Shown here one piece after another: positions 3,228-53,054 of a stretch of DNA of 60,779 nucleotides. Every line of letters starts with the position of its first letter. Positions within the stretch are counted from its first letter, which is position 1. A model generated the notes under the pieces. That model was not told the DNA's origin and ran no database searches. It saw only the letters and a program-made list of their open reading frames with translations. The stretch lies in the IMG/VR virus record IMGVR_UViG_3300045988_033451; one strand, 5' to 3'. A program made the position numbers and the translations under genes. This DNA is from a virus.

Positions 3228-4154
3228 TTATTCCGGTTTGATTCTCACCGATTCAATTCTCTTCGAAAGTCCTACGGTTCCTTGCAAATTGCCGAATCCT
3301 TCCGCCCATCCGATTGTTTGAATATGACATTGTATCATTGCACCATGTATTTCGATAGCTTCAAGCCGTCTTGCTTCGCCTGTCGTTCCGATAATCGTGT
3401 CCTTTGTGATGATGCCATAATCTCTCCATCCAATGCCTTGAATATGCGCCTTAACTGAAATCTGTCTACCGGCTGGATCAATTTGGATTGCTTCAAGTCT
3501 CTTTGCTTGTCCTGTTACTCCGGCTTCTTCGCCCTCGTTCTTCCAATCTGACCATCCATATGTCTGTTGATGTACTCTATACTTCATAACTCCTTTTACC
3601 TCCTCAATATCATAACTAGGTCTGCCATATCCATAAATACTGTTTGAATTGATGTCGTAAGACTTCTTACATACGCCACCTCCATTCGCGATAACACCAC
3701 TTGCTCCGGACGTGTTTCCCTCGATTGTATAAACTTTGTATCTGTCAACTGCATAAACAAGTCCTGTGTGCTTCACGTTTGATGCACTTCCAAAGAATAT
3801 CTGATCGCCGACCTGTGGCGAAGTAAAGAATCTTCCGATCTGCTTAAAATAGTTAGCAGAATATCCGCATCCGGCTCCAAGCGACTTATCCGGTTGGTTC
3901 AACAACTTCTTAGCATTTTCAATTCCATACGCTTGAATAAAGCACCAATCAACGAACACGTCGCACCATGCATATCCGTTTTTCTTTCCGTTGTAGAAGT
4001 TTGGATATTTGGTGTCAATATCGTTCGCATATTTGGTGTAGTTGTTCGTTCCAGCATTTGCGGTCTTATCGTACAACTGCGCGTTCGTTTTCTTTTCGAG
4101 ATATCCAACTTCATTCATTGCTACCGCAATTACTTTGCTTGCATATAATTCCAT
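3228..4154 (-). CDS. Endolysin with an N-terminal CHAP-like amidase/peptidase domain and three ChW repeats
   Basis: The YAWCDVFV...HTGLVY region is CHAP-like. Three repeats of the (H)xQxxGW...G..G...RLEAI.I type follow. AGGAGG RBS. Confidence 0.85.
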   Translation of the reverse strand: MELYASKVIAVAMNEVGYLEKKTNAQLYDKTANAGTNNYTKYANDIDTKYPNFYNGKKNGYAWCDVFVDWCFIQAYGIENAKKLLNQPDKSLGAGCGYSANYFKQIGRFFTSPQVGDQIFFGSASNVKHTGLVYAVDRYKVYTIEGNTSGASGVIANGGGVCKKSYDINSNSIYGYGRPSYDIEEVKGVMKYRVHQQTYGWSDWKNEGEEAGVTGQAKRLEAIQIDPAGRQISVKAHIQGIGWRDYGIITKDTIIGTTGEARRLEAIEIHGAMIQCHIQTIGWAEGFGNLQGTVGLSKRIESVRIKPE

Positions 4155-20679: not shown

Positions 20680-22116
20680 TTATTCAGTAATTGCTTTATC
20701 TTTCTTATTAATTTGATCTACTATTTCTTGTGCTTTTGCTTTTTGTGCTTCTGCATCATCAATAGTCTTATACAGATTTTCGAGATACGGTTTCGATAAG
20801 TTAAATGTCTTTTCCGCGTCTCCCCACAGTCCTACTGTTGCTATCGCAATAAGGGGATGTATGCCGGCTTGAAGCAATACTGTAAGTGTTTGTGCCTTGG
20901 TGTACATATTATCCTGTGGGCTATGATTGATCTGTACATCAAAATCTCTTATTGACAACTTTAGATCGTTATCATTTACTCTAAGGATATTTAACACGAC
21001 ATTTGCAAGCCGCTTTTCTGCCGATTTAACAATTGGGTCTTTCAGCTTTGCCCTTGTCTTAGAGAAGTCCCAGCCATTACGAAGCTCTACGGCTCCCTGT
21101 GTATCTCCTCCGGTATTTCCTTGTTTGTTCGGTATTGCCAAAATAGATAGTGTATTATCCCATATATCATCCTTTGCTACTTGACATTGTGTTTGATTTA
21201 ATTCCTGTGTCATAATATCGACGTCGGATTTATTATCTCCATTGTTCGACTTAACTGCCAAAGCATGGCTTCTCTTCATTTTCTCGAACTCTGCTTCGTC
21301 GATTTGGCAATTCACGAATTTTATCCAATACTGCACAAATTGTTCAACGCCATCCATTCTATTGGACTGCATATTGTTTATCGCATCCAGCATACCAATA
21401 ACAAGCTCGATATCGGAAATTCTTTCGTGATTGTTAGGGAACTCAACAATCGGTATTCCACCGTATGTGTGAAGTTTGCTCTCAATCAATTTCCCATCTT
21501 GAATCTTATAAGATGTCGTGTCAGAAAACGCCAATTTATACCAATTTCCGTTTTCGTCTTTAAGTTCTTGAACGGAAAGCATCGGCTCTTCTGTGCTATC
21601 GTTATAGATTGAAAAAGTATTCATCGGCGTTGGTGCAACAATTAAAAATGGAACATCTGAATTTGCTTTAGGTCTTGCCGCCTTAAATGATGTTCCTGTT
21701 GCGGATTGCCACTCACCAGCTTTGATGTCTTTTTCTTGCTTGTTTGCATCTGCCATAAAATCATTGAGCATATCCACAGCCTTGTTGACTGCTTCATCAT
21801 CTTTTCGGCTAATGAATTGAATCGGCTCGCCGTAGGTCTGCCCCACTTTGAACTGAACAATTTCGTATGCATGATTTTCCACGATTCTGTTTGTGATATC
21901 TTCATTTGTTAACTTCTGTCGATACAAAATCGGTTGATCTCCCTTGTAATAATTCCAAAGATATCGGATAACAGATTTGTTGTAGTAAAATGTTCCAATG
22001 CATTCTCCAATAACTTTGACAACATTATCTGCGGTTATCTTATCAACGCTTGTATATGCAATTTTTCTTCCGTATCGACCTTGAACAAGGTCTTGTAGAT
22101 ACATTCTGTTATTCAT
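20680..22116 (-). CDS. Portal protein (SPP1 gp6-like)
   Basis: 478 aa, downstream of terL, with a typical portal N-terminal region. Confidence 0.85.
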   Translation of the reverse strand: MNNRMYLQDLVQGRYGRKIAYTSVDKITADNVVKVIGECIGTFYYNKSVIRYLWNYYKGDQPILYRQKLTNEDITNRIVENHAYEIVQFKVGQTYGEPIQFISRKDDEAVNKAVDMLNDFMADANKQEKDIKAGEWQSATGTSFKAARPKANSDVPFLIVAPTPMNTFSIYNDSTEEPMLSVQELKDENGNWYKLAFSDTTSYKIQDGKLIESKLHTYGGIPIVEFPNNHERISDIELVIGMLDAINNMQSNRMDGVEQFVQYWIKFVNCQIDEAEFEKMKRSHALAVKSNNGDNKSDVDIMTQELNQTQCQVAKDDIWDNTLSILAIPNKQGNTGGDTQGAVELRNGWDFSKTRAKLKDPIVKSAEKRLANVVLNILRVNDNDLKLSIRDFDVQINHSPQDNMYTKAQTLTVLLQAGIHPLIAIATVGLWGDAEKTFNLSKPYLENLYKTIDDAEAQKAKAQEIVDQINKKDKAITE

Positions 22117-22925: not shown

Positions 22926-24740
22926 TTAATAGCCTCCTGTTCTAAACGGATTTGCCGTTGCTGTTGCCGTTGCAAGATTATTTGGATTCTCGATAAACAT
23001 TTCAAGCTGTGTAAGTCCATCGGCAGCATCATCATGTTTGTTCTCTCCGATTGATACAAACATGGTCAATTCGTCCATGGCCGCTTGATATTCGTCGTTT
23101 CTTCGATATCGGACAACTCCTAATTCTGCATCTTTCTGTAACTGATCCTGCGTAACCTTTTTTGATTCAAGGAAAATAAATTTTCGTTTTATGTCGCCAG
23201 AATACGCTATGATTTTTGATAGCTTTTCAATTTTGTTCGGTGCCTTCCTACTTGTACACGAACATTTATATTTCTGATCCTGTAACCGTTCATCAACATA
23301 TTGACAATATAATTCTCCACCCGTGTTTCCCTCAAATCTTGTTTGCCTTATTCCGTTTCCTATAATTCTTCCTACCACCAAAGGCAATGTAACCTCTTTT
23401 GCTCCTTTATTGAACACCCAATCATAGATATATACATCTCCGTTATCATATTCTGCACCAATCGGCATTGATAAGCTATCTCCGCCGCCCCATGCAACAT
23501 CCACAACTCCAATACGGCGAAAATCTCCATCCGGCAATATTCCGTTGAAATATCTTAATTCGTCCGTAGGGAAAAGCAATCCCTCACGCACAAATGGTCG
23601 CTGCATAAATTTAGCTTCCCATTCAGCCTTGTCAAGTTTCTCTCTCATATCCCTGTAATATGCCGTAGAAAAACCATTTATTTCATAATCAAAATTACTT
23701 TCGTCGTTTTCATCAAGTGCCGGTATTCTTCTAAATCTGTACTCTGGATTTCCGTCATAAGATTTTCGTAATCGTTCCAACGGATCAAGGACATTCCATA
23801 ATGTACCGACCATCAGTTCTCTTGCTCCATCGTTTTTACGGTCAACCATCTTATTCAGATATTCTTGATACGTATTTTCCATTCGAGTAGGACTAAGGGA
23901 ATGTTCACGATCTCTTACCAAGTCATCCACATATAAATATCCATCTTTTGATACATCAACAGCACCGGTCCATGTTCCGTCAATACCTCGACAAGTAACT
24001 GTTGCGAATCTATCTGGATCACCCAAAGTAATTGTAAATTCATCCGCGCTTTTGTCTGTTACAAGAGATTTATTTGCATATTCTGGATTCCAAAAGAAAA
24101 ATAATTCATCAAATGCATATTCTTCTGTCGAAAACAAATTCATAAGTTCCTTATAAAATCCTTTTGCAAGGATTCCAGAGTGTCCTCCCATTGCAGAGTG
24201 GCTATTTGGTCTACGCATTGCAACCCAGGCAAGGAAGAATATGCATATTGTTGATTTTCCGACACGGGATGGCATTGACAAGCCGTAAAATTTGATCTTT
24301 CTGTTTTCCAAATCTTCAAGGTCATTTACAACAACCTTCAAAGTTTTTCTTCTTGGATAATAAAACCGCTTACTCCAATTACGTTTGCGCTCCATATAAT
24401 ACATAAAGCTCTCAAAATTGTAATAGCTTTCCAATTTTAGAAGTTCATAATATTTGTCTATTAGGTCATATGGCGTATTATGATCTTGTGCATATTTCTC
24501 TAAATCCCATATAGTTCCGCCTGTCTGTTTCATGCAGAATTGCTCTATAATGCCCTTAGACCGCTTTGTAAGTTGTAACCCATACTCAATATCCTTTTCG
24601 CCATTTATAGCCACCTTACAGGCTTCAATGTATGCAGATATTACGGATTCATCGACCAAATGTGTCTTTATAAAATTGTCATATTGATTTACTGTGTTGA
24701 TTAACTCTTTGGATGCCAAAGAAAAAGCACCTCCGCTCAT
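22926..24740 (-). CDS. terL: Terminase large subunit
   Basis: Walker A-like motif SMPSRVGKST. 604 aa, upstream of the portal gene. The start could instead be the TTG 18 nt downstream. Confidence 0.9.
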   Translation of the reverse strand: MSGGAFSLASKELINTVNQYDNFIKTHLVDESVISAYIEACKVAINGEKDIEYGLQLTKRSKGIIEQFCMKQTGGTIWDLEKYAQDHNTPYDLIDKYYELLKLESYYNFESFMYYMERKRNWSKRFYYPRRKTLKVVVNDLEDLENRKIKFYGLSMPSRVGKSTICIFFLAWVAMRRPNSHSAMGGHSGILAKGFYKELMNLFSTEEYAFDELFFFWNPEYANKSLVTDKSADEFTITLGDPDRFATVTCRGIDGTWTGAVDVSKDGYLYVDDLVRDREHSLSPTRMENTYQEYLNKMVDRKNDGARELMVGTLWNVLDPLERLRKSYDGNPEYRFRRIPALDENDESNFDYEINGFSTAYYRDMREKLDKAEWEAKFMQRPFVREGLLFPTDELRYFNGILPDGDFRRIGVVDVAWGGGDSLSMPIGAEYDNGDVYIYDWVFNKGAKEVTLPLVVGRIIGNGIRQTRFEGNTGGELYCQYVDERLQDQKYKCSCTSRKAPNKIEKLSKIIAYSGDIKRKFIFLESKKVTQDQLQKDAELGVVRYRRNDEYQAAMDELTMFVSIGENKHDDAADGLTQLEMFIENPNNLATATATANPFRTGGY

Positions 24741-25984: not shown

Positions 25985-26857
25985 CTATATTCGTTTCATG
26001 TAAATATTCTCTCTGATCTTCCCGGAAAAGAAATGCTGCAAACTCTTAGATACGCGCCTGCCATTCATCTTGTAGTCGGTTGCAAAATAATCATCAATCA
26101 TCCACATATAATCTTCTGCTTCACAATCAACTACTTTGCCGGTCGGGTGGAAATACGCATCGACGATACTCTTAATTGCGCTGTCTGATACGTCTATATG
26201 CCTTATATCCGATTCTTTTTCGTATCTGCTGATGAAATATTGAATAATGTTTCTAAGGTCGATTATTCGGCTTCCTAACGTGTTCGGTTCTGCATATTGA
26301 CCGATAAGATACGGAACATCCTCTATCCGATATTTAACATTGCTTTGCCCGACTGCCTTTTCGTCAGAAAAGCATAATGTTCCTTTTCCTTTAGGAAAAG
26401 CATAAGAGTAATCTTTAGTAGTATTCTTTGGTATTGGTCTGTCATATTGTCCTTCTCGACAGGACATTTTGTCCTCTTCGGAGATTTTATTAGAATCATA
26501 AGCCTTTATCATCTCTTCAAGCACTTCAAAATCTATTGAATACCACTTTGTTTTATCAATGCACATCTTGTTATAATTTGCAGAAATAACGATTCCTTTG
26601 TTTTCAAGACGTGTGAATGTTCTTTGTATTGTTTTTTCACTCCAATAAGGGAAATCATTTTCTCTCCACTCCGCATAAGAGTTATAAACCCAATATTTCC
26701 CATCAATAAAATTCTTGTCAGCCTTTTTGTTGATTTCAAGCCAATAATTTAACTGATTAAGAATTATTGCTTCGTTCAGATCGCCCAATACAAGTGCTAA
26801 ATCTGTATTTACAATAAGTGTCTTTGACTTATCTATAAATAAATCTCTCAAATTCAT
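25985..26857 (-). CDS. Winged-helix DNA-binding protein (replication-organizer/DnaD-N-like fold)
   Basis: AIILNQLNYWL...DGKYWVYNSYAEWRENDFPYWSEKTIQRTFTRLENKGIV pattern. Confidence 0.5.
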   Translation of the reverse strand: MNLRDLFIDKSKTLIVNTDLALVLGDLNEAIILNQLNYWLEINKKADKNFIDGKYWVYNSYAEWRENDFPYWSEKTIQRTFTRLENKGIVISANYNKMCIDKTKWYSIDFEVLEEMIKAYDSNKISEEDKMSCREGQYDRPIPKNTTKDYSYAFPKGKGTLCFSDEKAVGQSNVKYRIEDVPYLIGQYAEPNTLGSRIIDLRNIIQYFISRYEKESDIRHIDVSDSAIKSIVDAYFHPTGKVVDCEAEDYMWMIDDYFATDYKMNGRRVSKSLQHFFSGKIRENIYMKRI

Positions 26858-26980
26858 TTTATATTACCTCCTGTGAAAGATAACAGCACTCCACTTGTGC
26901 TTAGAACCTGTGAACAACAAATCAGCAAACAGACGGTCACAGTTCCGCTTTTCGCTTCGTCAAGCTAGTTTGCTGTAAAG

Positions 26981-27063
26981 TGTAGCAGGTGGATTCGAAC
27001 CACCATCCGGCTTTCATCGTTGTTTTCTGTGCGCACGCCACTCTACCATTGAGATATGCTACA
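26981..27063 (-). ncRNA. tRNA-like element A, with good acceptor, D and T arms but no anticodon stem
   Basis: TGTAGCA/TGCTACA acceptor, GGTGG-TTCGAAT-CCACC T arm, and a 34-nt middle with only 3-4 bp of pairing. Confidence 0.4.
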
Positions 27064-27339
27064 ATGTGCGGTTTCCGATGCAGACATTGTAACCGGTGTG
27101 GTATGCCATGCATCGGAATTTTTTTATTTCAGCAGGGATTACTGCAACGCCTGCTTATTCGGGACTACCCGACCGCTTGATGCGGCGTGGATTTGCACCA
27201 CACATATTCTTCTATAGCAGAACAGACACCCTCCGGGTCCTGCTTACCTATTTGCATACGCATCAACTGAAAAGCAAGATGGTTTTACGGATGCAAAGAT
27301 AACCAACAACTAAGCTCCGAGGTTCATTGCTTTTTCAAA

Positions 27340-27430
27340 CGCCGACAATAGGACTTGAACCTATACGCCGCATAAGCGACTACTGACAGTTTAGCAAACT
27401 GTTCCCTTACCAAATTAGGGTTATATCGGC
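27340..27430 (-). tRNA. tRNA-Ser (GCU), class II
   Basis: GCCGATA/TGTCGGC acceptor, ACAGT-TTGCTAA-ACTGT anticodon arm, 21-nt variable arm and ATAGG-TTCAAGT-CCTAT T arm. No CCA is encoded. Confidence 0.75.
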
Positions 27431-27496
27431 AAAACACCGCCTGTTACGGTATGCACATCCGAAAATGTGCATGGTTGGATTCCACAACATTGGGAG

Positions 27497-27523
27497 AAAC
27501 AAAAAATGTCCCTTTGCAAGGGA
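27497..27523 (-). terminator. Rho-independent terminator after tRNA-like B
   Basis: TCCCTTGCAAAGGGA hairpin followed by CATTTTTTGTTT on the minus strand. Confidence 0.5.
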
Positions 27524-27597
27524 ATCGACACGGAAGATTCGAACTCCACCTATATCGCAATATGCGAATTATGCTATCCAATTACACTACATGTCGA
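27524..27597 (-). ncRNA. tRNA-like element B, cloverleaf-compatible but with a 5-nt (ATATT) or non-canonical 7-nt (CAUAUUG) anticodon loop
   Basis: TCGACAT/GTGTCGA acceptor, TGGAG-TTCGAAT-CTTCC T arm and TCGC-ATATT-GCGA anticodon region. If it is a tRNA, the anticodon would be UAU with A33. Confidence 0.4.
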
Positions 27598-27789
27598 AGC
27601 GACTTTTTTCGCCGCGGGTTAGTCGAAATTGTGTGGCGCACGCGTGAACACCGCGCAAAATCCAAGACTGTTCGTTAGTCAATTATCGCGAATCAGTGAC
27701 ATAGAATCAGACAAGATATTACACTCACAACCCGATAAAAAATAGTTTGTTGCGTCAAAACGTATTCGTGGGTATGCAGGTTGTGAGAT

Positions 27790-27873
27790 ACGAAGCACCC
27801 GGAATCGAACCGGAATTTACGGGAAAACGTGGGGTGTGTAAAACCGTATGATCTGCCATTGATCTATGCTTCG
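27790..27873 (-). ncRNA. tRNA-like element C, with perfect acceptor, D and T arms and a 5-bp anticodon stem closing a 21-nt loop
   Basis: CGAAGCA/TGCTTCG acceptor, GATC-AATGGCA-GATC D arm, TACGG[TTTTACACACCCCACGTTTTC]CCGTA anticodon region and TCCGG-TTCGATT-CCGGG T arm. Confidence 0.4.
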
Positions 27874-28060
27874 TGTGCGCATCCTCTTGGGGAGACAGAC
27901 GCGCAAAAGGAGAAATGTGTGTTCCCCATGGAATAAAGGGGTTTATACGCGCCGGCATTCAACCGGCAAAACCCACCGAGCCTTGTGACGGCTCTTAACA
28001 GCTTTCCGCTAGTGGGTTACGAAAGGAGGATCCTAAAATGAAAAACATTAAGAATCCAAG

Positions 28061-28132
28061 CTGCCCTAGTTGGATTCGAACCAACAACTGCAGGAATCAA
28101 AGTCCTGTGCCTTACCATTTGGCGATAGGGCA
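28061..28132 (-). tRNA. tRNA-Gln (UUG)
   Basis: TGCCCTA/TAGGGCA acceptor, CAGGA-CTTTGAT-TCCTG anticodon arm and GTTGG-TTCGAAT-CCAAC T arm. Close to the Bacillus tRNA-Gln as I recall it. Confidence 0.85.
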
Positions 28133-28140
28133 TAAAACGC

Positions 28141-28734
28141 TTATGCAGCGTGTTCTGACAAAATTCTGTCTAAAGTCGGTCTTGATACACCAATGTTCTT
28201 CGCAAATGCAGACTTGGTGATCTTACCGGACCGGTAAAGAATCAAATTGCTGTCAAGCAATTCGCTATCTACAGTTTTCTTTGTACCGCCCTTGTATTTG
28301 CCTTCTTTCTTTGCAATAGCGATTCCTTCTGCCTGCCGCTCTCTGATATGTTCTCTTTCAAGATTCGCAACGTAGGAAAGAATCTGCAATACCAGATCGG
28401 CGATAAATGTGTCTGTCAAGTCTCCGGTTCTTCCAATAGTCGTGTCAAGTAGTGGCATATCGAGGACCTTAATGCCTGCTTTAATAGTCTTAGTAATTCT
28501 ACGCCATTCCTCCATGATCTCGTCATAGTTTCTGCCGAGCCGGTCGATAGAAAGGATAATTAGAACATCGTCGCTTGTTAAGTTGGCAATCATCTTTTGA
28601 TAATCAGGTCGTTCAAAATCCTTGCCTGATAACTTGTCTGTGTAAATCTTTTCGCATCCAGCATTTTTAAGTGCTTCTAACTGTCTTGCAAGGTTCTGTT
28701 CCTTGGTTGACACTCTCGCATAGCCTATAATCAT
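28141..28734 (-). CDS. Small serine recombinase (resolvase/invertase family, 197 aa)
   Basis: MIIGYARVSTKEQNLARQ... catalytic-Ser motif, SIDRLGRN, and a C-terminal HTH (SAFAKNIGVSRPTLDRIL). Confidence 0.85.
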   Translation of the reverse strand: MIIGYARVSTKEQNLARQLEALKNAGCEKIYTDKLSGKDFERPDYQKMIANLTSDDVLIILSIDRLGRNYDEIMEEWRRITKTIKAGIKVLDMPLLDTTIGRTGDLTDTFIADLVLQILSYVANLEREHIRERQAEGIAIAKKEGKYKGGTKKTVDSELLDSNLILYRSGKITKSAFAKNIGVSRPTLDRILSEHAA

Positions 28735-28782
28735 AATCACACACCCCTTATCTTTAATTGATATGGGTATTATATCACAAAA

Positions 28783-28847
28783 TGCAATGCTTTGCAATGC
28801 TTTGCAGTGCATTTTATTGCTTTGCAGTGCTTTGCATTGCAATATTT
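28783..28847. promoter_or_regulatory. Six 10-bp-phased TGCTTTGCA(N) repeats overlapping the divergent promoters
   Basis: Units begin at 28788, 28798, 28808, 28818, 28828 and 28838. A TTGCAA-17-TATATT promoter faces the RHH gene. Confidence 0.5.
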
Positions 28848-33597: not shown

Positions 33598-33852
33598 ATG
33601 ATAATAGGAATGTTAAACAACGGAACAACATGTACATACGATTTACCATCAGAGGTAAAGACAGCGGAAGAATTTAAAAGCCTTATATATGGCTACAATG
33701 ACGGAAGAATGGCAGAAAGCCAGCGTGAAGAACTTTACAACCAGCCTAAATTATTGGGCTTGAATGGTCCTATGTGGGGCGGCTGGGGAACTCTTAAAAG
33801 CACAGGCGAAACGGTCGCAATAATTCGATATGAAAAACCTTTAAATTTTTAG
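33598..33852 (+). CDS. Small ORF P2 (84 aa)
   Basis: GGAGG RBS. Confidence 0.55.
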   Translation: MIIGMLNNGTTCTYDLPSEVKTAEEFKSLIYGYNDGRMAESQREELYNQPKLLGLNGPMWGGWGTLKSTGETVAIIRYEKPLNF

Positions 33853-33913
33853 CCGAAACGCTCCGATCTTGGAGCGTCCACCGCGGGACGGTCTCCCGGT
33901 GCTGATGATGGCA
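33851..33913 (+). ncRNA. Hammerhead ribozyme motif HH1 (type II topology)
   Basis: GAA at 33855-57. Stem III is ACGCTCC/GGAGCGT (A15.1-U16.1) and C17 is at 33878. Stem I hairpin spans 33879-33901 and CUGAUGA spans 33902-08. Stem II is short (GGC/GCC with one extra U). Confidence 0.55.
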
Positions 33914-33932
33914 GACCAGAAAGGAAAAAAAT

Positions 33933-39967: not shown

Positions 39968-41215
39968 TCAGGATTTAAAAGTGTTGCCCGTGTTACCTTT
40001 TCGGCATAAAGCGTTCACAACAAGTTCTTTTACTTCATCTCTTCCGTGATTGTTGAAGTAATAATATTTTTTCGTTGTCTCTATGTCCTCATGCCCCATT
40101 TGATTCTCAATCACGCTATCAGGAACGTTTGCATCAATTAACTTCGTTGAATATGTTTTTCGTATTTTGTGAAGTGATCTCTGCTTAATTCCCAATTTGT
40201 TACATATCCGATACAGTTTTCTCGAAAACAAATATCCCTTGATGCGCTGTCCGTCTTTGAAGAATAGATAATCATTAAACGGATTCAACGCTCGAATACG
40301 CTTAATAATCATTTTCGCTTCCGGTGTCAAATACACAGTTCTGTACCCGGCTTTTGTCTTAGGTGCATCCCTTACATCAAAAACATAGTTTCCATCTTCA
40401 TCACGATATCTAATTTCCGTCTTAGTGATTGATATAGAATCTTCTTTTACATCTTTCCACATGAGGGCGGATAATTCTCCCGATCGTAGCCCGGTTTGGA
40501 ATGTAAGCAAAATTCCAAGTCCAAGTAAAGAATCTCGCTCCGCATTTATGCACCATTCAATCTTCGCTTCTTCGGAATCCGTAAAAACTTGTTCTTCGCT
40601 TGAAGTGTAGGTTTTCTTGAAAGATTTATCAGAAATCTCCAAATCTCCAATAAATGATGTAATGCTTATCGAAGTAAGTCCTCGCTTTTTTCCACGCTTG
40701 AATATTCCGTTTATGAGCGTTCTAAGATTTCCCCACGCTTTTGATGTAAGCTGTTTCTCTTTGATCGTCGTCCGAATAAAATCTTCCAGATCATCTTCTG
40801 TGATATATCTGAATTTTATCTGCGCAATATGAGAATTTTTAATATATTTAATAAAATCTGTTTTGTATCTATCTGCTGTTTGCTTTTCTATTTCTCCGTA
40901 TTTAAGCTTTCTATCTAACCATTCATCAAATACGTCATCTATATAAGGCTCGTTTTCTTGTTCCTTATAAAACTGAACAATAGCATCATTCAATGCCTGT
41001 TCTGTTGTTCTCTTTATCAACCTCTTTCCTCTGCTATATTTTTCGTCTGGCAGATATGTATAAAACTTTCCGTCTTTACTCTGCCAGATGCTATAATTGT
41101 GATTTTCAATGTACCGATTTCTTTCGTTCATTTCAATCTTTTGTTGTATGTCGCTTACGTCGATAATACCATTTTCGATAGCGAAATTCAACAATTCTTT
41201 GTCGGAAAGTTCCAT
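39968..41215 (-). CDS. int: Tyrosine integrase
   Basis: AGGAGG RBS before MELSDKEL. The C-terminal catalytic region contains ...HKIRKTYSTKLIDANV...MGHEDIETTKKYYY. Confidence 0.85.
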   Translation of the reverse strand: MELSDKELLNFAIENGIIDVSDIQQKIEMNERNRYIENHNYSIWQSKDGKFYTYLPDEKYSRGKRLIKRTTEQALNDAIVQFYKEQENEPYIDDVFDEWLDRKLKYGEIEKQTADRYKTDFIKYIKNSHIAQIKFRYITEDDLEDFIRTTIKEKQLTSKAWGNLRTLINGIFKRGKKRGLTSISITSFIGDLEISDKSFKKTYTSSEEQVFTDSEEAKIEWCINAERDSLLGLGILLTFQTGLRSGELSALMWKDVKEDSISITKTEIRYRDEDGNYVFDVRDAPKTKAGYRTVYLTPEAKMIIKRIRALNPFNDYLFFKDGQRIKGYLFSRKLYRICNKLGIKQRSLHKIRKTYSTKLIDANVPDSVIENQMGHEDIETTKKYYYFNNHGRDEVKELVVNALCRKGNTGNTFKS

Positions 41216-41415
41216 GCAGACACCTCCTTCCATTTGCGTTTTATTTCCCTGACAGTTCTTTCAACTGTGCTTACAGATATGCTTAATTTGTACGAAACTT
41301 CCTTCTGTGTGCTTCCCCGGCACAACATTCTAAAAATCTGTTCTTCTTCGTCCGTAAAGTTTGCTTTAGTAAGAATCCCCTCAATTTCCGGCTTAGTAAG
41401 TCTACTAAACTTCAT
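41188..41415 (-). CDS. Small sigma70-r4/LuxR-type HTH protein
   Basis: LTKPEIEGIL...QIFRMLCRGSTQKEVSYKLSISVSTVERTVREIKRK. Confidence 0.55.
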   Translation of the reverse strand: MKFSRLTKPEIEGILTKANFTDEEEQIFRMLCRGSTQKEVSYKLSISVSTVERTVREIKRKWKEVSAWNFPTKNC

Positions 41416-48480: not shown

Positions 48481-49233
48481 TCACTCCTGTTTAATATTCA
48501 AGTTTTTAAACATGGCGCACATAACATCAACGACTATACTGTTGCCAAACTGCTTGTATAACTGCGTATTACTGTTTACTGCTGCCATTTTGTCAATATC
48601 TTCATCAGATACGCCCATCAACCGACCACATTCTCTAGGGGTTAGCTTTCTAATGCGATATTGGGTTTCAATTCTGCACAATTCTTGGTTCTGTGCCATA
48701 ATTGTAGAGCATACGCTTCCACGATCCTGTACTCTGACACGTCTAGTGTCACTGTCTGGGAAACTTAAATCAGCCACTCCACCTAGTTCACATTCGGCAT
48801 ATCCTCGCTTTGTCGCTTGTTTTACAAGAACCATATTATCTTTCTGCACGCTCGTTAAACAATTACTTGTGCCTTGTGTATTCGCTTCTAACCGCTGCTC
48901 TGTTGGACTTCCTGTAGTTCTATCTGACGGATTATCAGGATTTCTGCCACGCATGGCAACTATCTGACTTTCACATATTTTAATCTGTTGTGTACCACCA
49001 CCCTCAACTGTTGTGATATTAGGGCAAAGTGCATTTTCATCATATACTGTGTTTGATTGATGTTTTCCTGTGCCATTATCCATAAATCCCAACTGCTTCG
49101 CTTCAAGAATTTTCGGCTCTTGATTACCGCCTTGCATTGTACTCAATGTTGGACTACACCCCCCCACATCATAAATTCTGTTGGTACTCTCAAATTTTGC
49201 TTCAAGAGAACCTAAAACATTTACATCTGCCAT
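48481..49233 (-). CDS. C5 DNA methyltransferase, C-terminal piece (target-recognition segments plus motifs IX-X) with its own RBS
   Basis: RIRKLTPRECGRLMG (motif IX) and QFGNSIVV (motif X). AGGAG RBS. Confidence 0.75.
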   Translation of the reverse strand: MADVNVLGSLEAKFESTNRIYDVGGCSPTLSTMQGGNQEPKILEAKQLGFMDNGTGKHQSNTVYDENALCPNITTVEGGGTQQIKICESQIVAMRGRNPDNPSDRTTGSPTEQRLEANTQGTSNCLTSVQKDNMVLVKQATKRGYAECELGGVADLSFPDSDTRRVRVQDRGSVCSTIMAQNQELCRIETQYRIRKLTPRECGRLMGVSDEDIDKMAAVNSNTQLYKQFGNSIVVDVMCAMFKNLNIKQE

Positions 49234-49378
49234 AACTACTCCTAAATCATGTGTATATGCTTCCTATTACTTCCATTCAACTACTCCATTCGTTCCGTAA
49301 TTATTCAATCCCTTATAATCTCTTGCCATAATTGTTGCCGAAACATCAATCACGGACGCTGTTGGTTCAATATCCTTA

Positions 49379-50361
<983 letters not shown>

Positions 50362-50365
<4 letters not shown>

Positions 50366-50952
50366 TCATCCCCACTTCCCAACAAACTCATAAACTTCTC
50401 GTACTGTTTCTGCGATACCTTATTGCTTTTCTTTTCGTCCTTAATTTCGATTTTAAGGTGTTTTTCTGCGATAGAGGATAATTCCCTTGCCAAAACCTTT
50501 TGACCTTGCTGTATGCCGTCTCTATATCCCTTAGCAGACTTAAATTCATTTATCTTCTCCTTTCCCTCTCCTTGACCTCCGGCAGTTTTGTTGTATCGAC
50601 ATTGATACCCCTTTTTCGTGTATTCTAAAATCCAATACTGTTCCCATTTGTCAAGTTCGCTTGCCGGATAATGGATGAAATTCAGTCTCCAACCATAAGG
50701 GTTTTCTTCGCTCCAAAATCCTCTTTTCTTGATGGATAAATCTATGTGCTGATATCCTGCAAGATGTCCGCACATCCTTTGTAAGATATGTAATGCCTGT
50801 CCGATGTAAAAATAGCCTATATTGTTTTCATCAACCCTTGTCAGAAAATATATTCCACTTTTATCATCAAGATTAGGATTTATATTTAACAACCTTTGGC
50901 TATTAACTTTTTCTATCGACTTGGCTTTTGCGATATTCTTGTATTTCTTCAC
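50362..50952 (-). CDS. GIY-YIG nuclease (homing-endonuclease-like)
   Basis: GIYFLTR...YIGQA. Confidence 0.65.

Positions 50953-51826: not shown

Positions 51827-53054
<1,228 letters not shown>

What the first reader, a model, noticed from the sequence alone, without database searches (positions are those of the whole stretch)
26981..28132. tRNA cluster mixing two canonical tRNAs with tRNA-like genes whose anticodon arms are abnormal
An ORF-free stretch of about 1.2 kb holds canonical tRNA-Ser(GCU) and tRNA-Gln(UUG). It also holds three elements with good acceptor, D and T arms but aberrant anticodon regions:
- Element A (26981-27063) has no anticodon stem at all.
- Element B (27524-27597) has a 5-nt loop, or a CAUAUUG loop lacking U33.
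- Element C (27790-27873) has a 5-bp stem closing a 21-nt loop whose first seven nt read UUUUACA. That would present UUA, complementary to the UAA stop.

Further structured segments lie between them. One is a 9-bp long-range stem, CTCACAACC/GGTTGTGAG, at 27724-27787. Another is an AACCCAC/GTGGGTT stem enclosing a perfect 5-bp/7-nt hairpin, GAGCC-GUCACAA-GGCUC, near 27975-28022.

Possible explanations are degraded tRNA genes, decoy or inhibitor RNAs for host anticodon nucleases or tRNA-modifying enzymes, or unconventional suppressors. Published work, as I recall it, indicates that phage tRNAs can evade anticodon nucleases through anticodon-loop changes. These elements would be a far more extreme version of that.
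Basis: partly seen in the sequence, partly recalled or inferred. Interest (0 to 1): 0.65.

Follow-up and report, generated by a model that had tools for sequence, protein, structure and literature searches.

The report
Phage tRNA look-alikes that cannot decode
A gut phage's tRNA cluster holds two normal tRNA genes plus three conserved genes (and one relic) that keep a tRNA's body but lack a working anticodon loop, and one of them carries a long loop that matches the ribosome-binding site of the neighbouring recombinase gene, so it may be a tRNA-shaped antisense regulator.

Summary
On the minus strand of 26980-28132 lie canonical tRNA-Gln(UUG) and tRNA-Ser(GCU) and three true tRNA homologues: C 44.5, A 39.0 and B 34.3 bits against Rfam tRNA (cut-off 29). 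Their anticodon domains cannot decode. A has a 25-nt loop, B a 5-nt loop without U33, and C a 21-nt loop. I also found a sixth, decayed element, D (27264-27178).

They do not look like freely decaying pseudogenes. B and C occur in all 27 related IMG/VR contigs, and C in 17 further metagenome contigs. About 99% of stem pairs are kept across variants, including compensatory changes. The acceptor/D/T parts vary 2-4 times less than the spacers, while the anticodon domains vary most.

The new result concerns C. Its loop core UUACACACCCC pairs with the Shine-Dalgarno/start region of the serine recombinase gene that heads the same transcription unit, over 10-11 bp at -20.5 kcal/mol. None of 418 shuffled cores matched this anywhere in the window.

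My best reading is that these are non-decoding RNAs on a tRNA body, and that C is an antisense repressor resembling the P1 C4 RNA. The suppressor reading is not supported. The nuclease-decoy reading is untested. Partners for A and B remain unknown. All function is inferred, because no expression data exist.

The parts
28769..28797 (-). Promoter-like site of the recombinase/tRNA-like transcription unit (TTGCAA, 17 nt, TATAAT with upstream TG).
   Evidence: 10 of 12 matches. Conserved in relatives.
28736..28755 (-). Translation-initiation region of the recombinase mRNA, AAAGAUAAGGGGUGUGUGAU (SD AAGGGG), the proposed target of Element C's loop.
28141..28734 (-). Small serine recombinase (resolvase/invertase type, 197 aa). 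The true start is ATG 28734, not the TTG at 28842 listed mechanically.
   Evidence: Pfam Resolvase 7.8e-32 starting at residue 38 of the long ORF. The translation begins MIIGYARVSTKEQ.
28060..28132 (-). Canonical tRNA-Gln(UUG).
   Evidence: Rfam 67 bits.
27875..28059 (-). Structured spacer S1, with several hairpins. It includes a Y-shaped AACCCAC/GUGGGUU element with an inner GAGCC-GUCACAA-GGCUC hairpin and a U run (terminator-like, 27978-27994).
   Evidence: Fold z-score -4.0..
27790..27873 (-). Element C. It has a tRNA body (acceptor, D and T arms) and a 5-bp anticodon stem closing a 21-nt loop (27823-27843). The loop core UUACACACCCC (27831-27841) is complementary to the recombinase SD region.
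   Evidence: Rfam tRNA 44.5 bits with a 17-nt insert in the loop. Fold. Pair counts. Duplex.
27598..27788 (-). Structured spacer S2, including the 9-bp CUCACAACC/GGUUGUGAG stem. Two pairs show compensatory changes among relatives.
27525..27596 (-). Element B. It has a tRNA body with a 4-bp T stem. Its anticodon arm is a 6-bp helix with one bulge, capped by a 5-nt loop AUAUU (27559-27563). Read as 7 nt the loop is CAUAUUG, with no U33.
   Evidence: Rfam tRNA 34.3 bits with the anticodon domain skipped. Two compensatory pairs in the arm.
27498..27523 (-). Intrinsic-terminator-like hairpin UCCCUUGCAAAGGGA followed by a U run, directly after B. It is the likely end of the recombinase unit.
   Evidence: The block conserved in all relatives ends here (region position 693).
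27339..27431 (-). Canonical class II tRNA-Ser(GCU).
   Evidence: Rfam 50.5 bits.
27178..27264 (-). Element D, a decayed tRNA-shaped relic. It has a 6-bp acceptor stem, a T loop UGCAAAU and an 'anticodon' hairpin ACCC-GGA-GGGU. Only its 3' half is conserved in all relatives, where it marks a mosaic junction.
   Evidence: No Rfam hit.
26980..27063 (-). Element A. It has a tRNA body and a 3-4-bp stem closing a 25-nt loop (27012-27036). The loop has a covarying mini-palindrome (GUGCGCAC or GAGCGCUC) and an invariant purine-rich core GAAAACAACGAUGAAAG. It occupies the exchangeable 'slot A'.
   Evidence: Rfam tRNA 39.0 bits, with 25 nt replacing 13 model positions. Variants. Slot alignment.
26907..26975 (-). 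int-alpA RNA motif. It starts 5 nt after Element A and is the leader of the DnaD-like 290-aa gene (25985-26857) that precedes the terminase and portal genes.
   Evidence: Rfam RF02996 50.3 bits. PHROGs and Pfam.

Best explanation
A, B and C are tRNA-derived genes that have given up decoding and now encode small RNAs built on a tRNA body.

**Role of the body.** The acceptor, D and T arms are kept by selection. I infer that this is because the body lets host RNase P, RNase Z and the CCA-adding enzyme cut the RNAs out of a long noncoding transcript and makes them stable.

**Role of the anticodon domain.** It is no longer needed for codon reading and has been capped or turned into a display loop:
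- B has a 5-nt loop.
- C has a 13-21-nt loop across variants.
- A has a 25-nt loop.

**Element C.** Its displayed loop is an anti-ribosome-binding-site sequence. It pairs with the Shine-Dalgarno and spacer region of the serine recombinase mRNA. That mRNA starts the transcription unit in which C lies: promoter, recombinase, tRNA-Gln, S1, C, S2, B, terminator. Pairing would block 30S binding and hold recombinase synthesis down, giving negative feedback by a stable 3'-encoded RNA.

**Elements A and B.** They have no identified partner. A sits in a slot directly upstream of the int-alpA leader of the late operon, and in relatives any tRNA-shaped gene can fill that slot. A and B may therefore act mainly as processing and stability modules, or bind a protein.

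**Status of the claims.** Shown here: homology to tRNA, structural constraint, variability of the anticodon domain, and non-random complementarity. Inferred: transcription, processing, and repression.
For: **tRNA homology without a decodable loop**
- Rfam tRNA gives 44.5, 39.0 and 34.3 bits, with the anticodon domain skipped.
- ARAGORN and RNAfold structures agree.

**Constraint**
- C keeps 99.5% of 189 stem cells paired over 9 variants. One T-stem pair is compensatory and five changes are pair-preserving on one side.
- B keeps 99.4% over 8 variants. Two pairs in the capped anticodon helix are compensatory.
- Nucleotide diversity:

| Region | Diversity |
|---|---|
| Bodies of B and C | 0.016-0.038 |
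| tRNA-Gln | 0.034 |
| Spacers | 0.058-0.068 |
| Anticodon domains of B and C | 0.084-0.122 |

- B and C are present in 27 of 27 IMG/VR relatives. C is also in a Lachnospiraceae MAG and in 17 metagenome contigs. tRNA-Ser is deleted in two relatives.
- None of the three scaffolds occurs anywhere in IMG/VR with a normal anticodon arm.

**C pairing with the recombinase ribosome-binding site**
- The duplex is -20.5 kcal/mol for the 12-nt core and -21.6 for the whole loop.
- None of 418 shuffled cores reaches this anywhere in the 60.8-kb minus-strand RNA.
- GGGGTGTGT occurs exactly twice in the window, once on each strand, at these two sites.
- The net energy is about -14 kcal/mol after opening costs.
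- Within the 1.2-kb cluster, C's loop is the best partner of the initiation region.
- In relatives the target GGGGUGUGUA gives 10 perfect Watson-Crick pairs.
- The window's two substitutions in the target (A to G, U to A) keep one pair as G.U and add another.

**Transcription unit**
- A promoter-like site lies at 28797-28769 and a terminator-like hairpin directly after B.
- This block is the one conserved in all relatives.

**Slot A**
- It always holds a tRNA-shaped gene 3-6 nt upstream of int-alpA, down to 37% identity of the downstream protein.
- Its occupants have any kind of anticodon arm: Tyr, Ser, UUA, UCA, an 8-nt loop, tetraloops, or A.

**No encoded CCA**
- None of the five elements encodes CCA, so RNase Z-type 3' processing is expected (read, established knowledge).
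Against: - There are no expression, processing or aminoacylation data.
- The lineage is narrow: 3-12% divergence, about 45 contigs, all from gut. Part of the conservation therefore reflects recency.
- The loop core and the target are both almost invariant, so there is no covariation between them.
- One loop variant (AUUUUCAC...) pairs over only 8 bp with no compensating change in the target.
- One metagenome variant has a C-to-A change inside the core.
- C-rich loops have a generic affinity for G-rich Shine-Dalgarno sequences.
- A's loop has no significant target in the window, and B has no loop to pair with.
- More distant homologues of the recombinase have no tRNA-like genes downstream, so there is no independent replicate.
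- A terminator-like hairpin in S1 lies between the recombinase gene and C, so co-transcription is uncertain.
Confidence: 0.45

Rival explanations
1. The elements are processing punctuation only. Their tRNA bodies are kept because RNase P and RNase Z cuts at their ends release the flanking structured spacers and the int-alpA leader. The loops have no function. The match between C's loop and the ribosome-binding site is a footprint of how the insert arose (an inverted duplication) or a compositional accident.
For: - The body is conserved and the anticodon domain is the most variable part.
- Slot A accepts any tRNA-shaped gene.
- The elements abut hairpins, a terminator and a leader within 0-10 nt.
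- Spacers S1 and S4 are strongly structured, with z-scores near -4. S2 has compensatory pairs.
- RNase P and Z are known to process tRNA-like structures in non-tRNA transcripts (PMC4919922).
Against: - B's anticodon helix is itself maintained by two compensatory changes, although RNase P and Z do not need that arm.
- The 9-10-nt cores of the C and A loops are almost invariant while their flanks vary.
- The loop-target match is far beyond shuffled controls, and it sits exactly on the ribosome-binding site of the operon's own gene.
Confidence: 0.2
2. The elements are plain tRNA pseudogenes. They are relics of rapid gain and loss in a phage tRNA array, still intact only because the lineage is young.
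For: - The cluster is visibly a place of turnover. Element D is decayed, and in most relatives it is only a 3' half at a mosaic junction.
- tRNA-Ser comes in two allelic forms and is deleted in two relatives.
- Slot A is swapped between relatives.
- The family is confined to one gut phage lineage.
- 'Pseudo-tRNA' calls are common in phage genome papers.
Against: - Of about 14 variable stem pair types in B and C, 12 keep pairing and 3 are fully compensatory.
- The bodies are 2-4 times less diverse than the neighbouring spacers and no more diverse than the functional tRNA-Gln.
- B and C are present in every relative, whereas a canonical tRNA is dispensable.
- The anticodon arms are neatly capped or looped, not eroded.
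Confidence: 0.15
3. The elements are decoys or inhibitors for host enzymes that recognise tRNA shape, such as anticodon nucleases or toxins acting on the acceptor end. They would bind by the tRNA body but could not be cut or used, because the anticodon loop is capped or replaced.
For: - An intact L-shaped body is combined with an unusable anticodon loop.
- The anticodon domain is the fastest-changing part, as expected in an arms race.
- On the 'CGGATAG' scaffold in relatives the anticodon arm is hypervariable while the body is constant.
- Phage tRNAs are proposed to counter tRNA-cleaving defences (PMC10264068).
Against: - No nuclease, repair enzyme or other tRNA-directed gene was found among the 40 window ORFs scanned.
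- Loops of 5 nt or 21-25 nt do not mimic a nuclease's substrate loop.
- A decoy would have to out-compete a very large pool of cellular tRNA.
- This reading does not explain the match of C's loop to the recombinase ribosome-binding site.
Confidence: 0.1
4. The feature acts at the DNA level. The 9-10-bp inverted repeat (recombinase ribosome-binding site and C loop) would be a pair of recombination sites for the adjacent serine recombinase, flanking an invertible segment of about 0.9 kb.
For: - The two copies of GGGGTGTGT are in inverted orientation. They flank the recombinase gene, tRNA-Gln and S1, as in Hin-type switches (own knowledge).
- tRNA-like sequences coincide with mosaic junctions.
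Against: - All 27 relatives and the metagenome contigs are colinear.
- The predicted inversion junction is absent from IMG/VR.
- The repeat has no dyad symmetry.
- A much better candidate binding array lies upstream of the recombinase gene, over its promoter: a 10-bp-periodic TGCTTTGCA array, reported as five overlapping 24-nt copies.
Confidence: 0.05
5. The elements are unconventional decoders. C would be an ochre suppressor presenting UUA, or A and C would be intron-containing tRNAs that are spliced to give normal loops.
For: - C's loop begins UUUUACA.
- Relatives carry tRNAs with UUA and UCA anticodons in slot A.
- A more distant phage, Dulem virus 39, has an RtcB ligase gene near its tRNA cluster.
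Against: - Loop length varies from 13 to 21 nt through an indel, and the 'anticodon' bases vary.
- No RtcB, ligase or endonuclease was found in the window ORFs scanned.
- TAA is the commonest stop, and no read-through candidates were found.
- ARAGORN finds A only by inventing an intron in its most relaxed mode.
Confidence: 0.03

Closest known systems
C4 antisense RNA of phages P1 and P7 (immI operon; Rfam C4 family)
   Same: It is a small phage RNA cut from a longer precursor by RNase P. Its loops pair with, and mask, the ribosome-binding region of a gene in the same operon. (Own knowledge; Hartmann et al. 1995 is listed as an RNase P substrate paper in PMC4919922.) Element C has the same logic: a loop complementary to the Shine-Dalgarno region of a gene in its own unit.
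   Different: - C4 is not a tRNA homologue; only its end resembles an acceptor stem. C scores 44.5 bits against the tRNA model.
- No Rfam C4 match was reported in the cluster or window.
- C4 lies upstream of its target, whereas C lies about 0.9 kb downstream.
- Processing and repression of C are untested.
tRNA-like viral and cellular non-coding RNAs released by RNase P/Z (murine gammaherpesvirus 68 vtRNAs; mascRNA from MALAT1)
   Same: They have a tRNA-shaped fold used as a processing handle, are not used in decoding, and lie next to other structured RNAs (PMC4919922; own knowledge for MHV68).
   Different: Those are eukaryotic. Here the elements sit in a bacteriophage tRNA array, are clear sequence homologues of tRNA, and at least one carries a candidate antisense loop.
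Engineered 'tRNA scaffold' for expressing recombinant RNA (insert placed in the anticodon arm)
   Same: The architecture matches: an intact acceptor/D/T body with a foreign sequence replacing the anticodon loop, relying on cellular tRNA processing and stability (own knowledge).
   Different: That is a laboratory design. A natural counterpart in a phage has, as far as my searches show, not been described.
Phage tRNAs predicted to evade anticodon nucleases through anticodon-loop mutations
   Same: These are phage-encoded tRNA genes whose anticodon loops differ from host tRNAs (PMC10264068).
   Different: Those keep a 7-nt loop and decode, and only single positions at cleavage sites change. A, B and C have 25-, 5- and 21-nt loops and cannot decode.
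Pseudo-tRNA genes annotated in phage genomes; regulatory pseudo-tRNA 'tRNA-Other' of Bacillus cereus
   Same: They are tRNA homologues with a defective or odd anticodon region. tRNA-Other has a regulatory, non-decoding role (own knowledge; the phage pseudo-tRNA annotations were seen only as titles, abstract openings and term counts).
   Different: Phage pseudo-tRNAs are normally just flagged by software without analysis. Here there is evidence of constraint and a candidate target.

Membership tests
tRNA (Rfam RF00005), as homologue | 7-bp acceptor stem with discriminator, D arm with GG, and T arm with a UUCRANY loop, scoring above the family cut-off. | tested here: met
   C scores 44.5, A 39.0 and B 34.3 bits against a cut-off of 29. 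Strict shape scan. B's T stem has 4 bp.
tRNA, as functional decoder | 5-bp anticodon stem closing a 7-nt loop with U33 and a purine at position 37. | tested here: not met
   A has a 3-4-bp stem and a 25-nt loop. B's loop is CAUAUUG (A33, U37) or a 5-nt loop. C has a 21-nt loop.
tRNA, as functional decoder | Aminoacylation and use on the ribosome. | not testable with these tools
   This needs acid-gel or periodate assays.
Neutral tRNA pseudogene | No constraint: stems accumulate disruptive changes, and presence among relatives is patchy. | tested here: not met
   99.4-99.5% of stem cells are paired, with 3 compensatory pairs. Body diversity is lower than in the spacers. B and C are present in 27 of 27 relatives. 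Element D does meet this description.
Suppressor tRNA | A normal anticodon loop presenting a stop-complementary triplet, and a genome that tolerates or uses read-through of that stop. | tested here: not met
   The loop is 13-21 nt and its leading bases vary. TAA ends 29 of 62 long ORFs, with no read-through candidates.
C4-type phage antisense RNA | A loop complementary to the ribosome-binding region of a gene in the same operon. | tested here: met
   This applies to Element C only. It pairs over 10-11 bp at -20.5 kcal/mol, and 0 of 418 shuffles reach that value.
C4-type phage antisense RNA | Sequence and structure homology to the Rfam C4 family. | tested here: not met
   No C4 hit appears in any cmscan of the cluster or the window. 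C works like C4 at most; it is not a member.
C4-type phage antisense RNA | Maturation by RNase P and repression of the target's translation. | not testable with these tools
   This needs in vitro cleavage and reporter assays.
Anticodon-nuclease-evading phage tRNA | A decoding-competent tRNA with point changes at the nuclease recognition or cleavage positions of the 7-nt loop. | tested here: not met
   No 7-nt decoding loop is present in A, B or C. Definition taken from PMC10264068.
Intron-containing tRNA | A defined intervening sequence whose removal restores a canonical arm, together with splicing machinery. | tested here: not met
   Insert length differs among close relatives. No ligase or endonuclease was found in the window ORFs scanned.

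The most novel reading that the evidence does not exclude
This phage lineage may use the tRNA body as a modular chassis for regulatory RNAs. On this reading a tRNA gene is duplicated, and its anticodon arm is replaced by an effector loop, such as an antisense seed or a protein-binding motif. Host tRNA-processing enzymes then deliver a stable, precisely trimmed small RNA.

Element C would be the first natural tRNA-scaffolded antisense RNA, repressing the phage's own serine recombinase. Two further observations could belong to the same system:
- Element A, with its 25-nt loop.
- The exchangeable slot-A cassettes in relatives, which have a constant body and a hypervariable anticodon arm.
Probability: 0.3. 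Interest if true: 0.8.

Novelty: new variant of a known kind. Interest (0 to 1): 0.6.

Why it matters
Phage genome annotation routinely discards such genes as 'pseudo-tRNA'. If tRNA bodies are reused as carriers for regulatory loops, three things follow.
1. Many pseudo-tRNA calls in phage tRNA arrays may hide small regulatory RNAs.
2. Counts of phage tRNAs, and inferences about codon compensation, suppressors or anti-nuclease tRNAs, would need to separate decoders from look-alikes.
3. Nature would have anticipated the laboratory 'tRNA scaffold' trick, giving a ready-made, testable example of RNA regulation in an uncultured gut phage of Clostridia.

The C-recombinase pairing is directly testable with a two-plasmid reporter and compensatory mutations.

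Tried and rejected
1. **Known ribozymes or RNA families in the spacers (theta/HDV-like, RAGATH, others).** No Rfam match appears in the cluster at E up to 10 apart from tRNA and int-alpA. I did not run a dedicated theta-ribozyme descriptor (PMC10879173).
2. **T-box-like pairing between slot-A anticodon arms and the int-alpA leader.** Rejected. The leader is 99% identical in relatives whose slot A holds quite different genes.
3. **int-alpA generally following tRNAs.** My pattern scan was mis-specified for this family and returned mostly chance hits. The three or four plausible int-alpA copies had no tRNA within 130 nt. The adjacency is therefore specific to this lineage.
4. **The conserved tRNA 3' half as an attachment-site copy of a host tRNA.** The pattern occurs in only one of 185,579 species genomes, and that hit is the same phage in a Lachnospiraceae MAG.
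5. **Canonical-armed versions of scaffolds A, B and C elsewhere.** None found in IMG/VR. For C, none in the metagenomes either.
6. **Targets of A's loop in the phage.** None beyond shuffled expectation on either strand.
7. **Similar tRNA-like genes downstream of distant recombinase homologues.** None.
8. **Resemblance of C's loop to the 16S rRNA 1400 region.** By my own estimate an 8-nt exact run is at chance level, so I dropped it.
9. **DNA inversion at the inverted repeat.** The predicted junction is absent from IMG/VR.
10. **Literature searches for a described phage tRNA-bodied antisense RNA or decoy.** Nothing specific found.
Full report
**Setting**

The window is a near genome-length contig of an uncultured siphovirus-like, probably temperate phage. 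Its genes lie almost all on the minus strand.
- Identified genes include an SPP1-type portal (20680-22116), large terminase (22926-24740), tyrosine integrase (39968-41233), RecT, SSB, C5 methylases and replication-loader proteins.
- No cultured phage is close. The best terminase matches are human faecal contigs at 47-49% identity.
- The only hit among species-representative genomes is a Lachnospiraceae MAG.
- The finding lies between a small serine recombinase gene and the first gene of the packaging/late block.

**Checking the observation**

All elements are on the minus strand.
- ARAGORN default calls Gln(UUG), Ser(GCU) and a forced 'Val(UAC)' for C. Relaxed modes add B as Ile(UAU) with a 3-bp stem, and A only by inventing a 14-nt intron.
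- My strict shape scan finds exactly these five elements in 60.8 kb on both strands.
- The Rfam tRNA model reported only Gln and Ser in whole-window and 1.8-kb scans. When given a few hundred bases it hits all three odd elements above its 29-bit cut-off, each time skipping the anticodon domain:

| Element | Bits | Treatment of the anticodon domain |
|---|---|---|
| C | 44.5 | 17-nt insert in the loop |
| A | 39.0 | 25 nt replace 13 model positions |
| B | 34.3 | 14 nt replace 13 model positions |

They are therefore real tRNA homologues with non-canonical anticodon domains.
- RNAfold reproduces the cloverleaves with a 25-nt loop (A) and a 21-nt loop (C).
- B's 7-nt reading CAUAUUG lacks U33 and a purine at 37. 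Its arm folds better as a 6-bp helix with one bulge and a 5-nt loop.
- I add a sixth element, D (27264-27178). It is a decayed tRNA-shaped relic with a UGCAAAU T loop and no Rfam hit.

**Relatives**

Anchoring on the two flanking proteins recovered 27 IMG/VR contigs with the same cluster at 87-98% identity, plus more distant groups.
- B and C are present in all 27. C is also in the MAG and in 17 further gut metagenome contigs.
- Canonical tRNA-Ser exists in two allelic forms and is deleted in two relatives.
- Pattern scans that fix the D arm and T loop but leave the anticodon domain free found scaffolds A, B and C only in these contigs, and never with a normal arm.

**Constraint**
- Across 9 variants of C, 99.5% of stem cells pair. 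The T stem shows one fully compensatory change and several one-sided, pair-preserving ones.
- Across 8 variants of B, 99.4% pair. The capped anticodon helix carries two compensatory pairs, G-C to A-U and A-U to G-C.
- A's variants differ by a palindrome-preserving double change (GUGCGCAC to GAGCGCUC) and by one D-loop position.
- Nucleotide diversity is 0.016-0.038 in the acceptor/D/T parts of B and C, 0.034 in tRNA-Gln, 0.058-0.068 in the spacers and 0.084-0.122 in the anticodon domains.

The pattern is a conserved body with a free or diversifying anticodon domain, the reverse of what a decoding tRNA shows. It is not what neutral decay predicts either. The caveat is that the lineage is young and narrow.

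**The wider family**

The position just 5' of the int-alpA leader ('slot A', where Element A sits) always holds a tRNA-shaped gene. This holds even in phages whose downstream protein is only 37% identical.
- The occupant changes: Element A, tRNA-Tyr, tRNA-Ser(UGA), or a 'CGGATAG...CTATCCG' scaffold.
- On that scaffold the acceptor and T arms are nearly constant, with minor D-arm variation. Its anticodon arm is hypervariable: UUA, UCA and UUG triplets, an 8-nt loop, and stems capped by tetraloops.
- The cassette borders coincide with the tRNA ends to within a base or two.
- The leader does not covary with the occupant, so specific pairing between the two is unlikely.
- int-alpA copies elsewhere are not preceded by tRNAs.

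**The new result for Element C**

I scanned the whole minus-strand RNA for partners of the long loops.
- C's core UUACACACCCCA has one outstanding site at 28748-28736, with -20.5 kcal/mol against -16.4 for the next unrelated site. None of 418 shuffled cores reached this value anywhere in the window.
- The site is the Shine-Dalgarno and spacer region of the serine recombinase gene.
- Its true start is ATG 28734, giving MIIGYARVSTKEQ. This matches where the Pfam Resolvase domain begins.
- The TTG at 28842 listed by the ORF tool is therefore not the start.
- GGGGTGTGT occurs exactly twice in the window, on opposite strands, at these two places.
- After the cost of opening both partners, the interaction is still about -14 kcal/mol.
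- Within the 1.2-kb cluster, the C loop is the best partner of the initiation region.
- In relatives the target reads GGGGUGUGUA and forms 10 perfect pairs with UACACACCCC. The window's two target substitutions keep or extend pairing.
- A promoter-like site (28797-28769) and the terminator-like hairpin right after B (27523-27509) bracket a unit: promoter, recombinase, tRNA-Gln, S1, C, S2, B, terminator. This is exactly the block shared by all relatives.

There are weaknesses.
- There is no loop-target covariation, because both are nearly invariant.
- One loop variant pairs over only 8 bp without compensation.
- One metagenome variant has a change inside the core.
- C-rich loops are biased towards Shine-Dalgarno sequences.

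The DNA-level alternative is that the inverted repeat is a pair of inversion sites. It is weakened for three reasons. All contigs are colinear. The predicted junction is absent from IMG/VR. A 10-bp-periodic repeat array over the promoter is a better candidate for recombinase binding.

**Mechanism proposed**

I infer that the elements are transcribed with their neighbours, excised by RNase P and RNase Z, and given CCA. None encodes CCA. RNase P and Z are known to process tRNA-like structures in non-tRNA transcripts, including the precursor of the P1/P7 C4 antisense RNA (PMC4919922; own knowledge).
- **C** would then persist as a stable tRNA-shaped RNA whose displayed loop masks the recombinase ribosome-binding site. 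This would give negative feedback on an enzyme that usually needs tight control.
- **B**, with a capped and covarying arm, has no identified partner.
- **A**, with a 25-nt loop that has an invariant purine-rich core, also has none.
- A and B may serve as processing or stability modules, or bind a protein.

**What is not supported**
- *Suppression.* The loop is variable and over-long, TAA is the commonest stop, and there are no read-through candidates.
- *Splicing.* Insert length varies, and no ligase or endonuclease was found in the window ORFs scanned.
- *Anticodon-nuclease decoys.* This reading remains possible but has no positive evidence. It also differs in kind from the point changes described for nuclease-evading phage tRNAs.

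**Novelty and verdict**

Pseudo-tRNA calls in phages are commonplace, and tRNA-like processing handles and RNase P-matured antisense RNAs are known. My searches did not find a description of a bona fide tRNA homologue whose anticodon arm has become an antisense loop against a gene of its own operon, inside a family of tRNA bodies with capped or expanded arms. I rate it a new variant of a known kind, with interest 0.6. Confidence is 0.45 in the full reading and higher, about 0.65, in the narrower statement that these are constrained, non-decoding tRNA-bodied RNAs.

Noticed in passing
window 33851-33920 (+): A type II hammerhead ribozyme (Rfam RF02276, 62 bits against a cut-off of 37). It lies on the strand opposite to nearly all genes, in a stretch without long ORFs.
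   Followed up: no
window 26907-26975 (-); also L010, L035, L039, L045, L052 and others: An int-alpA RNA motif forms the leader of the DnaD-like 290-aa gene. In every relative it starts 3-6 nt after a tRNA-shaped gene, and a terminator-like hairpin (26885-26901) follows it before the SD. Plausible int-alpA copies in unrelated contigs have no tRNA upstream.
   Followed up: partly
relatives: L010, L015, L038, L039, L013, L041, L005/L067 (slot equivalent to window 26980-27063): One tRNA scaffold (CGGATAG...CTATCCG) keeps nearly constant acceptor and T arms. Its anticodon arm differs wildly between phages: UUA and UCA (stop-complementary), UUG, an 8-nt loop CUGCGGUA, and stems capped by tetraloops. 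The cassette borders match the tRNA ends.
   Followed up: partly
window 27176-27205 (-), part of Element D: A tRNA 3' half, AUGUGUGGU(G/U)CAAAUCCACACC(G/A)CAUCAAG, is conserved in all relatives while the sequence upstream of it is unrelated between them. It therefore marks a mosaic recombination junction. It is not a copy of any species-representative host tRNA.
   Followed up: partly
window 28778-28842: A repeat array with a 10-bp period (TGCTTTGCA on the plus strand, reported as five overlapping 24-nt copies) with internal palindromes overlaps the -35 region of the recombinase promoter. It looks like a protein-binding array, possibly a res-like site or operator.
   Followed up: partly
window 28734 vs 28842 (-): The mechanically listed recombinase ORF starts at TTG 28842. 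The real start is ATG 28734, preceded by SD AAGGGG. The 108 nt in between are promoter and repeat array.
   Followed up: yes
window 27933-27942 (-), in spacer S1: A second C-rich segment, ACCCCUUUAU, is also nearly complementary to the recombinase SD region (AUAAGGGGU, with one bulge). In the predicted fold it is half of a CCCC/GGGG hairpin.
   Followed up: no
window 28020-28220 (+): A 60-aa plus-strand ORF with a strong SD (AAAGGAGG) runs antisense through tRNA-Gln. On the minus strand the same bases read GGAUCCUCCUUUCG, which resembles the 3' end of 16S rRNA. This is probably incidental.
   Followed up: no
window 27073-27125 (+): A plus-strand terminator-like hairpin with a T run lies antisense to the cluster, just downstream of the antisense of Element A. 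No plus-strand gene is evident.
   Followed up: no
window 48481-50952 and 51827-53054 (-): Two enzymes appear split. A C5 cytosine methylase occurs as two ORFs (49379-50365 and 48481-49233) next to a GIY-YIG ORF (50362-50952). A PAPS-reductase-like protein occurs as two overlapping ORFs in different frames (52479-53054 and 51827-52561).
   Followed up: no
L001 (Dulem virus 39, PP511791) 3557-3640 and 8-1213: The nearest GenBank phage with a related tRNA cluster has only canonical tRNAs: Ile UAU, Ser UGA, Ser GCU and Gln UUG. It also has a RAGATH-27 RNA between them and an RtcB ligase gene nearby.
   Followed up: no
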